A stretch of 64,000 nt of DNA from an uncultured cyanobacterium (GTDB lineage Bacteria; Cyanobacteriota; Cyanobacteriia; Pseudanabaenales; Pseudanabaenaceae), in contig OY969811.1 of assembly GCA_963703315.1 (NCBI GenBank), positions 2,176,001 through 2,240,000 on the forward strand, written 5' to 3'. A program made the position numbers. Position 1 is the first letter of the stretch, and each line of letters begins with the position of its first letter. Positions 15,001-24,000 of the stretch are shown here, piece after piece.

Positions 15001-18000
15001 AACCCGATCGCCTATTTCTCCATATCAAACAGCGATCGCCCCTCATCACCCACAAAACCCGATCGCATAAATCTCCACACCAAAAAGCGATCGCCCCAAA
15101 AAACTAAAAGTGGTTGTAAAATTTGGATATCTGACAACGATTGTGAATTGCCGATTAAAATGCTTATGGTTTATAGTGTGTATGGTGTGTTGAGATGAGT
15201 ACCACTTTCGAGTGGGATGAGCAAAAAGAGGCTGATAATAAGGCAAAGCATGGCTTAGATTTTGAAACTGCTCAATATGCTTTTTTCGATCCAGACCGTT
15301 TGATTGTCCATGATTCGGAACATAGTGAAGTGGAGGAACGTTGGTTTTGTATCGGTAAAGTAGATGATCTTGTATTGACAGTGCGTTTTACTTATCGAGA
15401 TGGAGTGATTCGGATATTTGGGGCTGCTCAATGGCGTAAATGGAGGAAATTTTATGAACAACACAATTCCTGATCCTGCTGAACCAATTGGAAATGTCAC
15501 TATTGTTAAAGATTTTTTGCCACCAGTGAATCAGTTAATTCCGAGGCAAAAGACGGTAACGATTACGATGGAATTCACTCAAGAAAGTATTGAGTTCTTT
15601 AAGCGTGAGGCTAAACGCCGTAATTCTTCATATCAAGAAATGATTTCCAATCTTGTGGATGCTTATGCAAAACAGAGTAAGGTATGAATAATTGATTCTG
15701 ATCGCCCCCACAACACCCAACACCCGATCGCCCATTCCCTCAAATCAAACAGCGATCACCCCACACCACCCACAAACCCGATCGCCTATTCTCCCAAATC
15801 AAACAGCGATCGCACCCTCATCACCCACAAACCCCGATCGCCCATTTCCACATCAAACAGGGATCGCATTGCTAATTTATATTGACGATTACGTTAGAAT
15901 TAATGCAAAACAAGTAGTAGAGCCGTAATGTTATGCAAATAAAAGAACTCACTACCGAACAGTTTCGTTTACTAGTTCGTGAAGTTGTAATTGAAGTGCT
16001 AGAAGAATATATCGATCTAGATGAAGGTAAGAAGTTAAAAGCATCGGTTGTGGAACGCTTATTACGACAACAACATCAACCAACTATTATTCCTGCGGCT
16101 CAAGCTATGCAATCATTGGGGCTTAATTGGGATGAGTTATAGTATTGACTTTACTTCTGAGGCGATCGCTGATCTTGCAAAAATCGACCGCACTAATCAA
16201 ATACGGATAGCTCGTAAAATCAAGTGGTTGGGCGAAAATTTTGAACAAATTACGCCTCTATCACTTTCTGGCAATTTATCAAGCTTTTTTAAGCTGCGTG
16301 TTGGAGATTATCGAGTTCTTTACGAGATCGCGCAATCACAAAAAAGTCTCACTATTCATCAGATCGGACATCGCAGAGAAATTTATGATTAGATGAATGA
16401 TCGCCTATTTCCTCAACATCAAACAGCGATCGCCCCTCACTACCCACAAACCCGATCGCCTATCTCCACATAAAACAGCGATCGCCCATTTCCTCAACCA
16501 AAACAGCGATCGCCATATCAGTATTCGTCATCTTCTAAATCGATTTCTAGATCTGAAATCAAATCTTGTGTAACAGCATAGACATCTCGCTTATCACCTT
16601 CCTTACGCCTTCCTACACCCACGATAACTACCACTACTCGATCTTGTTCGATTCGATAAATAATCCGATAACGCTGTCCGACAGACCGAATACTACGATA
16701 ACCCAATAGTTCTTCAGATAAAGCCTTACCTTGTTTTTCTGGTTCATCCTTGAGCTTCTCAATCCTTTTCAAGATCACGCTTTGTTCGCGCCGATCCTTG
16801 ATTGCAGTAAACAGTTTCTGCGCTTGAACAGAAAAAATAATTCTATATTCCATAGCAGTATTAGAAACCCAACTCTAATTTCAAGGCTTCTAAACTAATT
16901 GTTTGTCCTAAATCTGCTTGTCGAATACCTTCTCTCAAATCTGCCATAAACTCGCGATCACTTAAAATCTCCATTGTTTCAACCAAGGAAGCAAACTGTT
17001 GCATACTCAAAGCAACAATTACAGGTTTACCGTCTTGCGTGATAATCGCTGGATCTTTGAGGTTCTTAGATAGCGCTGGTAATTGTTGCTGAGCTTCAGC
17101 AACAGTCAAATAATTAAGCATAATGTTTTTTGAGTGACTATTGTTATTTTAGTCAATTTCAAGTTATTTAAGATTGTACGATATCCAGTCAAGCGATCGC
17201 CCCTCATCACCCAAACCCCGATCGCCTAAATCTCAACATCAAACTGCGATCGCCCCTCATCACCCAAAACGCCCGATCGCCTATTCCCCAACAAACAGCG
17301 ATCGCTCCTCAACACCCAAAACCCGATCGCCTATTCTCTGCAAATCAACCAGCGATCGCACCCTCATCACCCATAAAACCCGATCGCCTATTCCCCACAT
17401 CAAACAGCGATCGCCCCTCACCAAACCTAAAAATTATTTGATAAAATCAGGTGTTAGTGTCAAAGAGGAAATATTTGCTATGAAAAGGGATATGAATCTA
17501 ATTCGTAAACTTCTTTTGCAGTTGGAAGAAGCGCCAGCAGAAGTATATGTATCAAATTTAGAAGTGGCTGGATATTCGGATGAAGAAATTGCTTACAATG
17601 CTTACCTGATGATTGATGGCGGATTGGCAGAAGGCAGACAGTCTAAACAAACTAATCAAATGGGAGATAGTTGCCCTGTAGCTGTGACCTTGACTAATTT
17701 AACTTGGGAAGGGCATGAGTTTTTTGACTCAATTAGAAATGATTCTATCTGGAAGAATACACTAGGCTATATCAAGGAAAAAGGTGGGAATGTTCCATTT
17801 AACTTAATACCGCCAATCGCAGCGCTTTTTGTCAAGCAACATTTTGGGTTGTCATAAGCTTAGAACAGGGAGTTATTGTTTGTAATTGTTGTTAGTGAGT
17901 TATCTGATTTAAAGGGGGTATCAAGTGGGGAAATCTAACTGGCGATCGTTTGAAGAGGCTCGTGCTTTTGTACATCAACTTCAACTAAAAAATGTAGCAG

Positions 18001-21000: not shown

Positions 21001-24000
21001 CCGAAGAATGGTATCAATACCACCACCTCTATCGCGCCGCCCGTGAATCATGGAAAGAAATCCCCTACGAAAAAATTGCCGAAAAGCTCCAAAACTACAC
21101 CAATCTCCAGATCGGGGACTTCGGTTGCGGAGAAGCCAAACTAGCCGAATTACTTCCCAATCATCAAGTCCATTCCTTCGACCACATCGCCATCAACGCA
21201 AAAGTACAAGCCTGTGATATCGCCCATACACCTCTCCCAGATGCCACCCTCGATGTCGCCATCTTTTCCCTATCCCTCATGGGCTTAAACTATGCCGAAT
21301 ATCTCCAAGAAGCCCATCGCACCCTCAAAGGTGGCGGCAGTCTCCTCATCGCCGAAACCATCAGCCGATGGACAGACAAAAAGCAAGAACTTCTAGATTT
21401 ACTAACGAGTTTAGGATTCACTGTTGTTAAAGTGCAAACAGGCGATCGCTTCCTTTACATCAATGCCACTAAGCCACTGATCACCTTACTTTGATTATGC
21501 TAGGCTAAAAATAATTTGCATTCAGGAATGAAGAGATGTCAACCAATAGCCCAACTGTATTTGCAGAAGAATTAGCCAATGAGCTAGACAAAATCCCTGA
21601 GCAGTATTGGTCAAACCTTTTGCAGATTATTCGTTTATTTCGTGAAAGCGTTACGCCAGAATCAGAAAACCATTCTCAAGATCCTGCAATTGTCGAGGCG
21701 ATCGAAGATTTAGGGCTTGTCCATGCCATGCTAGAAGTCAAAGACGAAAAGCCTCTTAGTCTCCAAGAAGCACTTGCCGAAATGGAAAGAGCATGAATGT
21801 TAATTATCTTCCCAGCTTTCTTAAAGAACTTAAAGATCTCAGAAGTACACCTTACTTCAAACCCATAAACACACTTGTATTTGAGGAGATTCCTAAACTT
21901 GCTGGGTTGGCAGATATCAAAAATGTCAAAAAGCTACAGGGGTATGAAAATGCGTATCGAATCAAAGTAGGAGATTATCGAATTGGAGTGATCTTTGAAG
22001 ACGAAACCGTTACATTTTGTAGAGTATTGCATCGCAAAGAAATTTATCGCTATTTCCCATAAACTAACTCTCCCACCACAGATTCCCAAGAAATTGGCTG
22101 CTCCCCTAATCTTTCTGACTCAGCGATCATCTCTAGAGCATTAGAGAACTAAGCTTGCCATTTTTAGTAGAAGTTCTGCATCCAATAAAAAGACTGTTTG
22201 TAGATCTGCAAATTTTTTGATCGATACCTGCATGATATGACTGGCAATACCCAAGGTGTCGCGATCGCGGTATTCGGCTGGTATTGGCTGGAGACTCTGT
22301 ACAGGTACATCTTCTACATTAGGTAAATTGGCGATCGTAATTCCGTATAAACTATTTTTCCCTGCGAAAATAACTAGGAAACCTTTGGCTAGATTTGTCT
22401 CTTGACCATAAATTTTTTTATATAGGTCAATGACTAAAACTTCGCGATCTTCATAGGTGGTTATTCCCAATAACTTATCGCCACTACGATGAATTTGCGG
22501 TAAAGGAATAATCCGTACGACACTATCGATTCCCATTGCCAAATTTAGATCTCCCATTGAGAAGATTAAAAATTTGAGAGTTTCTTGTTTTTTCTTATTG
22601 CTGAGCATGGTAATTAATTATATGTTCGTATAAGCGTTGCGAAGCAACGCTTATACGAGTAAATCTTGAATTGTTTTGATTAAATCTTGCTCCAGATAAG
22701 GCTTGGTAATATATCCTGAAGCGCCAAGCACTTGAGCAACACCGCGATGCTTTTGTCCACCGCGTGACGTGACCATCACAATCGGAAGAGCCTTGTGACG
22801 CAGATCTTTGCGACAGGCTGCTAAAAATTCAAATCCATTCATATTGGGCATTTCCACATCGCATAACACAGCTTGAATTTCAGGCGATCGCGCAAGTTTA
22901 TCGATCGCCTCTCGTCCGTCGGAGGCTTGGACTATTTGATAGCCAAATTTTTCTAAGGTGAGATAGAGGGCTTGACGGGTGGTGAGCGAATCATCAACGA
23001 TCAGAATAGTTGGTCTCTGAAGAGATTTGACTTCTAATACTGTTGGCTTAGAGGGGACATGAGCTTTATCCGTAACTGGTGATTTAATCGAAGACTGAGG
23101 CATAGAGATCAAGGCGGCGCTATCAATCACGGGAACAAGTGTGCCATCGCCCAAAATAGTACAACCATATAAATAGGGTGGTGGAGCGATCGCTTTCCCA
23201 AAGGGTTTCACAGCTAACTCTTGTTCATTGAGAACGCGATCAATAGGTAGGGCGACTATTTCACTACCATCAGAGAATAACAACATCGTGGTTTGATTTT
23301 CTTCAGTAAAGGATTCTGTACTAAATATATCTAACGATTGTTTGGGTAATGGATAGCCATCAGCAAATATGGATATGGGATATAGCGGAATTAACCGATC
23401 TTCAAAACGATAAAATTCTTTGCCTTGAATAATTTGAATTTCACTAGAATCAACGGTGACAATGCCAAGTAAGGTATCGATCGCGATCGCTAATAATCGC
23501 TCTTGAATGCTGAAAATCATCAGCTTGGCAATACTGAGAGTAAGCGGTAATTTAATCGTAAATACCGTACCCTGACCTAGTACTGATTTAATGTCGATGG
23601 AACCCTTAAGACTGCGAACTTGCTCTTGGACAGTGGACAGCCCCATGCCTCTTCCTGATAGCTCAGAGACAGTTTCGGCTGTCGAGAAACTAGGTGCAAA
23701 TAGAAATTGATAAACCTCCTCATTAGTAATTTGATCGGCTTGTTCAGGTTCCAATAAACCAACGGCGATCGCCTTTTCTTTGACCTTCTCAACGTTAATC
23801 CCATGACCATCATCTTTGATTTCGATATAGGTTTGGTTACCACGATAGTAAGCTCGAATCTCAATGGAAGCAATTACAGGCTTACCGCGCTCCAGACGAT
23901 CCTGTGTTGAATCCGTACCATGATCGAAGGCATTTCGCACCAGATGCACAAAGGGATCGTAGAGCTTTTCTAGTACCGATTTGTCAACTAAGGTGCTTGT

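What a model noticed while it worked through the whole genome (the two positions that open the first line are those of the whole stretch)
17925..21494. Single-chain repeat-array / SF2 helicase / Rrp8-type methyltransferase protein with a hypervariable repeat array
g02107 (1,189 aa) joins five 66-residue repeats, an SF2 helicase-like ATPase and a C-terminal methyltransferase of the eukaryotic Rrp8/nucleomethylin (rRNA m1A) family. Among congeners the enzyme part is nearly constant while the repeat array changes in number and sequence, as expected of a modular target-recognition region in a one-gene defence or modification system.
Evidence so far: Pfam Methyltransf_8 E 2e-41, 36% to Arabidopsis Rrp8; SAM-binding and Rrp8-type motifs and helicase motifs invariant in 38 homologues. 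Congeners: 90-97% over the C-terminal part vs 58-67% over the repeats; present in 17 of 30, open frames 1,158-1,454 aa; repeat number varies widely among 120 homologues. At least 1,483 clusters share the helicase-methylase part. No PADLOC family beyond generic helicase hits. It lies at the end of a TA cassette island.
(Added by a program. Inside this text positions count along the whole contig: contig position 2,176,001 is position 1 of the stretch shown here. "Call 12" and the like, gene names such as g00115 and contig names such as C1 are that model's own, and its searches are not shown. The text may have been shortened before it was handed on; [...] marks where a part breaks off. The agent that wrote the report below was given it as the finding of a first reader that could run no searches.)

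Follow-up and report, generated by a model that had tools for sequence, protein, structure and literature searches.

The report
Repeat-guided DNA motor with Rrp8-type methyltransferase
A mobile bacterial and phage gene joins a swappable string of likely DNA-reading repeats, a motor related to chromatin remodellers, and a methyltransferase of a family otherwise known for marking eukaryotic ribosomal RNA, so it may be an undescribed sequence-aimed way of chemically marking or damaging a rival's genes.

Summary
In detail: a 1,189-aa protein with five 66-residue repeats, an SF2 motor and an Rrp8/NML-family methyltransferase (all 21 invariant family residues match a centipede RRP8). Refinements: the repeat is Pfam INT_rpt, elsewhere fused to an HNH nuclease and an integrase; the motor folds like Snf2 dsDNA translocases (Mot1, CSB), not an unwinding helicase. 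Arrays are replaced wholesale: 48 of 49 pairs with 97-99% identical motors share no repeat at 90% or more, and relatives carry unrelated arrays of homing-endonuclease type (DUF4379, DUF723/CapR). The family spans at least 14 phyla, plasmids and large viral contigs; there is no partner gene and no nuclease. Best reading (0.38): the array addresses a long DNA site, the motor tracks and remodels it, and the enzyme writes N1-methyladenine on DNA as a non-cutting weapon. RNA as substrate is the main rival (0.25). No description found in ten literature searches. Substrate and function are untested.

The parts
17925..21494 (+). Whole gene, 1,189 aa: repeat array - helical linker - Snf2-type motor - Rrp8-type methyltransferase
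17940..18902 (+). Five 66-aa repeats (aa 6-326; units start 17940, 18138, 18336, 18534, 18732), INT_rpt/PF14882 type, basic (pI 9.5), four short helices each
   Evidence: below the Pfam cut-off in this protein itself but called PF14882 in many homologues
18912..19142 (+). First helical linker domain (aa 330-406); region in which array exchanges cross over
19146..19274 (+). Acidic disordered spacer (aa 408-450; 16 acidic, 1 basic residue; pLDDT <50)
19275..19544 (+). Second helical domain (aa 451-540), conserved with the motor
19545..20849 (+). Snf2-type SF2 ATPase (aa 541-975): Walker A 560-567, Walker B 656-659, motif III 698-700, motif VI 888-895
20892..21491 (+). Rrp8/nucleomethylin-family methyltransferase (aa 990-1189); SAM-binding motif at aa 1065-1069
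17192..17420 (.). HIP1-rich tandem spacer of the kind that separates cassettes in this array and precedes all nine full-length close copies examined
17174..17857 (+). DUF2513 gene just upstream (the Pfam match begins at aa 104, so the true start is probably near 17483); not a conserved partner
21536..22062 (+). RelB-like / ParE toxin-antitoxin pair downstream; not a conserved partner
13398..17121 (.). Array of toxin-antitoxin cassettes (YoeB, DUF2283/DUF4258, BrnT/BrnA, ParE, Phd/ParE) separated by HIP1-rich spacers

Best explanation
A stand-alone, mobile, sequence-addressed DNA-modifying enzyme used in conflicts between hosts, phages and other mobile elements. (1) The repeat array reads a long double-stranded DNA site, each repeat contributing a few bases; specificity changes by recombining in a whole new array (inferred, about 0.8). 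(2) The Snf2-type ATPase then tracks along or distorts the duplex or displaces bound proteins (fold shown, activity inferred, about 0.85). (3) The Rrp8-type domain transfers a methyl group from SAM to N1 of adenine (family membership shown, chemistry inferred, about 0.7). (4) The adenine is in the DNA near the addressed site; since N1 is buried in the base pair (established chemistry), the motor is needed to expose it, and the product blocks pairing, polymerases and expression of the target without a cut (inferred, about 0.5). Long, rare targets would spare the carrier, which fits the lack of an immunity gene.
For: Same repeat fused to an HNH/EndoVII-type nuclease in a 485-kb phage (E 5e-51 to this array) and to a gamma-mobile-trio integrase. 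The same motor-methyltransferase core carries DUF4379, DUF723/CapR-homology, sigma70 region-4 and a fourth repeat type instead; those zinc-ribbon arrays match phage endonuclease families, CapR binds DNA specifically by EMSA (PMC8096241) and such arrays shuffle on homing endonucleases (PMC10448857). Array type changes at least 5 times on the motor tree (least possible 3), once between proteins 82% identical over 859 aa. Wholesale array replacement between 97-100% identical motors; pS 0.56 between repeats vs 0.185 in the motor. Foldseek top hits are Snf2 dsDNA enzymes. Methyltransferase profile hits NML at 1e-51, next entry 2e-3; 21 of 21 and 20 of 21 invariant columns identical in two eukaryotic RRP8 proteins; no amino-methyltransferase or C5 motif in 58 rows. 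The methyltransferase recurs with a second SF2 clade and other repeats, including HA repeats. Patchy (5 of 151 cyanobacteria), often decayed, at many chromosomal sites.
Against: The characterised Rrp8/NML enzymes act on rRNA (PMC6085284); nothing here shows a DNA substrate. Snf2 enzymes are not known to separate strands (recalled). No AlkB-family repair gene goes with it: 1 of 9 full-length carriers, 9 of 48 congeners overall. Two clades keep array and motor but have lost the methyltransferase (8 loci), so methylation is dispensable for some role. No enrichment of defence families nearby. DUF4379 proteins are also reported in trypanosome mitoribosomes (bioRxiv 2024.06.22.600160), so such repeats can associate with RNA. 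No solved structure for the repeat; pTM 0.53 leaves the domain arrangement open.
Confidence: 0.38

Rival explanations
1. DNA-addressed, RNA-modifying: array and motor recognise a DNA site or a transcription complex, and the Rrp8-type domain makes m1A in RNA (the nascent transcript of the target, or rRNA/tRNA once activated), stopping translation, possibly as abortive infection.
For: All characterised family members make m1A in RNA; the catalytic residues are the same; sigma70 region-4 and RNA polymerase alpha-CTD modules in some homologues point to transcription complexes; Foldseek hits include the polymerase-acting CSB and RapA; viral neighbours include tRNA and RNA-repair genes; no AlkB co-occurrence.
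Against: Covalent tethering to a DNA-type array and a dsDNA-type motor fits a cis DNA substrate more simply; carriage by phages fits suicide poorly; the domain is not basic (pI 6.5).
Confidence: 0.25
2. Targeted remodeller: the working product is ATP-driven removal of a protein (RNA polymerase, repressor, replication initiator) from the addressed site, as Mot1 or RapA do; the methyltransferase is accessory, modifies a protein, or senses SAM.
For: Methyltransferase-less forms end at the domain boundary with motor motifs intact in two clades; Mot1 is the top fold hit; a SAM-sensor entry is a faint profile hit (E 0.02).
Against: Most full-length members keep the domain with 21 invariant residues (50 of 80 genome loci have motor and methyltransferase in one frame), and it has been joined to two different helicase clades.
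Confidence: 0.15
3. Protective or selfish mark: the enzyme borrows homing-endonuclease arrays to bind and mark the sites those nucleases cut, shielding its own replicon, or simply hitchhikes as cargo of cassette arrays, IS1595 elements and integrative elements.
For: Endonucleases with the same zinc-ribbon arrays lie next door in several viral loci; IS1595 transposases (5 loci) and integrases (7 loci) recur nearby; frequent decay.
Against: m1A would harm the marked replicon (established chemistry); strong purifying selection on the motor (pN/pS 0.135); no linked nuclease in most loci.
Confidence: 0.12
4. An rRNA methyltransferase like its eukaryotic relatives: the repeats bind RNA, and the enzyme modifies the carrier's or host's ribosome constitutively.
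For: Family membership; DUF4379 in mitoribosomes.
Against: A fixed rRNA target would not drive wholesale turnover of the recognition region; distribution is patchy and mobile; the motor folds with DNA enzymes.
Confidence: 0.06

Closest known systems
Rrp8 / nucleomethylin (NML), eukaryotic 25S/28S rRNA m1A methyltransferase (PF05148; PDB 2zfu)
   Same: Whole catalytic domain including the N-terminal helices; 33-38% identity; TM-score 0.81 on the target; 20-21 of 21 invariant residues
   Different: Here fused to a motor and a variable repeat array, in bacteria and viral contigs, mobile and patchy; substrate unknown
Snf2/Swi2 translocases (Mot1, CSB, ISWI, Chd1, RapA, archaeal SWI2/SNF2)
   Same: Fold and motifs I, II, III, VI of the motor
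   Different: 11-16% identity; carries its own addressing array and a methyltransferase
Phage homing endonucleases with repeated CapR/DUF723/DUF4379 domains (T5orf172, EDxHD/Vsr and HNH types)
   Same: Bead-on-a-string recognition arrays of the same families, shuffled by recombination
   Different: The nuclease is replaced by a translocase plus methyltransferase; no homing shown
Type ISP restriction-modification enzymes, phage P1 DarB and fungal DNMT5 (recalled)
   Same: One chain with an SF2 motor and a methyltransferase; in Type ISP also a variable target-recognition region
   Different: Those use amino- or C5-methyltransferases; their motifs are absent here; no nuclease domain found
Helicase-bearing defence systems (DISARM DrmD, Dpd, BREX BrxHI, Hma)
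   Same: Weak hits on the helicase C-terminal lobe
   Different: Scores far below cut-off (36 vs 610 bits for DrmD); no partner genes
Giant-virus SF2 helicases with HA repeats
   Same: Weak fold matches of the repeat; a Nucleocytoviricota cluster with Methyltransf_8 and HA (47% of members); one locus with HA repeats plus the methyltransferase
   Different: Order helicase-repeats-methyltransferase; uncharacterised as far as my searches show

Membership tests
Rrp8/NML family | PF05148 over cut-off and NML as nearest solved relative | tested here: met
   (142.6 bits, cut-off 27)
Rrp8/NML family | Conserved SAM-binding and adenine-pocket residues | tested here: met
   21/21 and 20/21 invariant columns identical in two eukaryotic proteins; the pocket role of these residues is recalled
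Rrp8/NML family | Makes m1A in large-subunit rRNA | not testable with these tools
   needs biochemistry
Snf2/Swi2 family | SF2 motifs and Snf2-like fold | tested here: met
Snf2/Swi2 family | DNA-stimulated ATPase, dsDNA translocation | not testable with these tools
   needs biochemistry
INT_rpt (PF14882) repeats | Pfam match over cut-off | tested here: inconclusive
   none in this protein, but called in many close homologues and by the Atlas (0.94)
Type ISP / restriction-modification | Amino-methyltransferase motif IV or C5 catalytic motif | tested here: not met
   0 of 58 rows
Type ISP / restriction-modification | Nuclease domain or conserved nuclease partner | tested here: not met
   no nuclease family in Pfam, NCBIfam, PADLOC or PHROGs scans; no conserved neighbour
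DISARM / Dpd / BREX / Hma | Family score over cut-off and cognate operon | tested here: not met
Homing endonuclease | Nuclease domain | tested here: not met
Homing endonuclease | Repeated, shuffled DNA-binding modules | tested here: met
   DNA binding itself not tested
Anti-phage defence gene (general) | Enrichment beside known defence genes | tested here: not met
   15/150, 14/150, 18/144; single-HMM hits are a blunt measure and the random control is from one genome
Anti-phage defence gene (general) | Patchy, mobile, in variable cassette arrays | tested here: met
TALE-like coded repeat array | Few variable positions per repeat with a base code | tested here: inconclusive
   variable columns cluster at 19-20, 23-24, 40-41, 49, 62-63, but more than two vary and no targets are known

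The most novel reading that the evidence does not exclude
The family is the first enzyme class that deliberately writes N1-methyladenine, normally a lesion, into DNA at a site chosen by an exchangeable repeat array: a non-cutting, re-aimable weapon of bacteria, jumbo phages and giant viruses. The 66-residue repeat would be a new programmable DNA-reading scaffold, and eukaryotic RRP8 may descend from this conflict enzyme (two eukaryotic proteins fall inside the bacterial diversity of an unrooted tree; direction not shown).
Probability: 0.25. Interest if true: 0.95.

Novelty: categorically new. Interest (0 to 1): 0.76.

Why it matters
It places an Rrp8-type m1A methyltransferase, known from eukaryotic ribosome assembly, in a widespread mobile prokaryotic and viral protein where it is tied to DNA-type recognition arrays and a Snf2 motor. 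Whichever nucleic acid it methylates, a repeat-addressed m1A writer has no counterpart that I could find. Natural pairs with identical enzymes and wholly different arrays are ready-made material to find targets and a repeat-to-base code, and the family bears on the origin of RRP8.

Tried and rejected
Defence-island enrichment: not found (one search took the first 150 of 178 neighbours, one search took 150 of 154). Conserved partner or immunity gene: none among 1,331 neighbour ORFs. AlkB as antidote: no co-occurrence. Stand-alone bacterial Rrp8: the 10 of 120 short hits that I read continue upstream into the motor's C-terminus, so they are fragments; complete cyanobacterial matches lie in frames of 1,193-1,659 aa. 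Known fold for the repeat: no Foldseek match, best Z 3.3 over 53 residues, no sequence hit; this does not show a new fold. Alternative genetic code for the split viral locus L145: in-frame stops are TAA with clean restarts, so these are separate genes. Docking of an L145 array protein on the array-less enzyme: no verdict (score 0.00, no alignment). DNA context of array-less forms that start with half a repeat: not found in viral contigs. HIP1 sites as breakpoints of gene remnants: 10 of 53 ends vs 6.9 expected, p 0.14. Silent array copies in the own genome: none. Promoter and terminator scan: at chance level. Expression: RNA runs hold only contigs of relatives, mostly motor and methyltransferase pieces, which does not show transcription. 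Positive selection per repeat column: pN approaches pS but silent sites are near saturation. Earlier scan findings were not available.
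Full report
1. Observation. The ORF at 17925-21494 (+) encodes 1,189 aa. Five repeats of 66 residues start at aa 6, 72, 138, 204 and 270, 28-49 of 66 identical pairwise. Pfam finds Methyltransf_8 (E 2.2e-41, aa 1001-1174), Helicase_C, SNF2-rel_dom and ResIII; PADLOC and NCBIfam give only weak helicase stretches. Contigs of two runs from different studies hold most of the array at 98-100% identity, in pieces (one may be the source sample). The closest named homologues are from Pseudanabaena. The gene lies in an array of toxin-antitoxin cassettes separated by HIP1-rich spacers, with one more pair downstream. 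Of 48 congeners, 37 match at E<=1e-10 and 17 at E=0, but only 9 (own included) have full-length frames of this type; three others hold a full-length frame of a 40%-identical paralogue.

2. Anatomy. An AlphaFold2 model from a 58-row alignment (mean pLDDT 79, pTM 0.53) shows five four-helix repeats, a helical domain, an acidic disordered spacer, a second helical domain, the motor (aa 541-975) and the methyltransferase (aa 990-1189). Foldseek ranks Snf2 enzymes first (Mot1, BAF, CSB, Chd1, ISWI, Ino80, archaeal SWI2/SNF2, RapA) and NML at TM 0.81 of the target. Walker A, Walker B and motifs III and VI are invariant or nearly so in 58 rows. A profile of 58 methyltransferase domains hits NML at 1e-51 and nothing else better than 2e-3. 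Its 21 invariant columns are all identical in Strigamia RRP8 and 20 are in a Diphylleia protein; no row has the motifs of amino- or C5-DNA methyltransferases. Rrp8 and NML make m1A in large-subunit rRNA (PMC6085284, abstract and passages; PMC5699541, passages).

3. The repeat. It is INT_rpt (PF14882): under the cut-off here but called in many homologues and by the Atlas. A two-repeat model (pLDDT 84.5) has no match among solved structures; weak viral matches are giant-virus SF2 helicases. The same repeat follows an HNH/EndoVII-type domain in LR745208.1 and precedes the integrase domain of a gamma-mobile-trio protein; 1,580 proteins of 145-464 aa match an array query, and 115 of the best 120 have no non-repeat stretch of 60 aa or more. 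The array is basic (pI 9.5). In 52 in-register repeats of 55 from eight close genes, variation clusters at columns 19-20, 23-24, 40-41, 49 and 62-63.

4. How the array changes. Among eight close full-length genes the core is 90-93% identical in DNA, but a repeat's best match in another gene is mostly 70-80% (three genes were under-split there and re-split). pS is 0.56 between repeats against 0.185 in the motor. Across 130 array-bearing proteins (of 224 collected), 48 of 49 pairs with 97-99% identical motors share no repeat at 90% or more, and two pairs with identical motors have wholly different arrays; 4 of 10 pairs at 99% or more share all repeats. The protein database is clustered at 90%, so same-array pairs are under-counted; the point is that partial sharing is rare. 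In 22 chosen pairs identity climbs within the linker and is mostly 90% or more from about aa 440; a few pairs also differ in the methyltransferase. Silent-site GC is 0.14-0.25 in arrays and 0.65-0.73 in motors, against a genome median of 0.43, with none of 1,731 ORFs reaching 0.65; the array is the AT-richer part in 49 of 61 other homologues. HIP1 is realised at 0 of 4 possible sites in arrays and 55 of 57 in the rest (the latter sites are largely orthologous). The two halves have different histories.

5. The family. A genome scan confirmed 230 stretches and kept 80, from at least 14 phyla by record title (bins can be mislabelled); plasmids of Crinalium and Rhodococcus carry it; 18 viral loci came with the motor and 29 with the methyltransferase, overlapping; 471 metagenome stretches. 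The methyltransferase profile finds 1,179 representatives at 1e-30, eukaryotic RRP8 included. In 150 other cyanobacteria sampled, 4 match. The core carries INT_rpt (up to 12), DUF4379 (up to 9), DUF723/CapR-homology ribbons, sigma70 region 4 with DUF4379, or a fourth repeat type. On a quick motor tree of 73 rows the type changes at least five times; L081 and L084 are 82% identical over 859 aa with unrelated arrays. The zinc-ribbon arrays match phage endonuclease families. CapR binds DNA specifically (PMC8096241, passages); such arrays shuffle on homing endonucleases (PMC10448857, passages; PMC12350094, passage); DUF4379 also sits on a marseillevirus putative endonuclease (PMC5513546, passage) and, against a DNA-only reading, in trypanosome mitoribosomes (bioRxiv 2024.06.22.600160, passage). 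A second order, helicase-repeats-methyltransferase with a different SF2 clade, occurs in 6 of the 87 representatives of 780 aa or more and is interspersed on a FastTree of the methyltransferase; a giant-virus cluster and locus L179 join HA repeats to it. Eight loci in two clades end at the motor's C-terminus with no methyltransferase remnant (the other rows marked noMT are frameshifts or contig ends).

6. Context. No neighbour is conserved. Full-length close copies sit at different chromosomal places (output partly cut), yet 9 of 9 have the HIP1-rich spacer motif within 3 kb upstream, against 3.2% of random positions in the own genome (kin are not independent). PADLOC-family hits are not enriched: 15 of 150 nearest neighbours, 14 of 150 distal genes, 18 of 144 random own genes, although single loci lie near CBASS, Lamassu, Dpd or WYL genes. 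AlkB-family genes occur in 1 of the 9 full-length carriers.

7. Mechanism. Shown: domains, motifs, fold class, array turnover, distribution. Inferred: that arrays read DNA (every alternative module is of a DNA-binding or endonuclease-associated kind), that the motor acts on duplex DNA, and that the chemistry is N1-adenine methylation. N1 is hidden in a base pair, which would explain a fused motor, and m1A blocks pairing (established chemistry). I favour a site-addressed m1A lesion in a rival's DNA (0.38). RNA methylation triggered or aimed by DNA recognition is close (0.25); targeted protein displacement (0.15), a protective or hitchhiking role (0.12) and a plain rRNA methyltransferase (0.06) follow. 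Host defence is one possible use, not shown; phage carriage points to use by either side.

8. Comparison and novelty. It works like a Type ISP enzyme or a homing endonuclease whose cutter is replaced (analogies recalled, apart from the papers cited), but fails membership on methyltransferase class, nuclease and operon. Ten searches gave no description of the family; text searches of a 2026 defence review, a jumbo-phage survey and an adenine-methylation review found no such protein (passages or counts only). The library lacks most subscription papers and I read no supplements, where large defence-prediction tables may list it; databases already name some fragments RRP8-family. Verdict: real, widespread, undescribed as far as I could search, function open; interest 0.76.

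Noticed in passing
L145:3567-13172 (501-kb viral contig; same in L146): Six tandem genes made of INT_rpt arrays (two mixed with DUF723 ribbons), five ending in a shared degenerate repeat, stand directly before an array-less motor-methyltransferase gene: possibly interchangeable specificity subunits acting in trans.
   Followed up: partly
P0251, P0299, P0306, P0309, P0365, P0326, P0286: Array-less forms of 880-920 aa that begin with the last helix of a repeat, some seen on several contigs; DNA context not found.
   Followed up: partly
window 17925-21494: Silent-site GC jumps from about 0.2 to about 0.7 near aa 500 within one gene; the motor exceeds every long ORF of the genome yet is fully HIP1-adapted.
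   Followed up: partly
window 13398-22062: Integron-like array of toxin-antitoxin cassettes separated by HIP1-rich tandem spacers; the same cassettes recur in other orders at other sites in congeners. No recombinase gene was noted in the stretch 12367-22062.
   Followed up: partly
L083, L087, L095, L099, L107; L086, L104, L106: Two clades keep array and motor but lack the methyltransferase; four of the first lie head-on to a DUF932 gene.
   Followed up: partly
L134:4143-10875: In a viral contig the gene and a GIY-YIG endonuclease lie between a whole MnmA-like gene and a second, diverged C-terminal half of one.
   Followed up: partly
L131:6374-7342, L132:10594-11559: Deoxyhypusine-synthase-family genes right after the gene in two viral contigs, one followed by a pyruvoyl-dependent arginine decarboxylase.
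   Followed up: no
L184:3134-4912 (LR745208.1): Unannotated 592-aa phage protein: zinc ribbons, HNH/EndoVII-type nuclease, five INT_rpt repeats.
   Followed up: yes
L034, L035, L036, L139: A second paralogue in the same genus and in a terminase-bearing viral contig, with sigma70 region 4 plus DUF4379 repeats in place of INT_rpt.
   Followed up: partly
L081, L084, L133, L138, L144: An IS1595-family transposase, in four cases with a small conserved ORF, lies just upstream of the gene.
   Followed up: no
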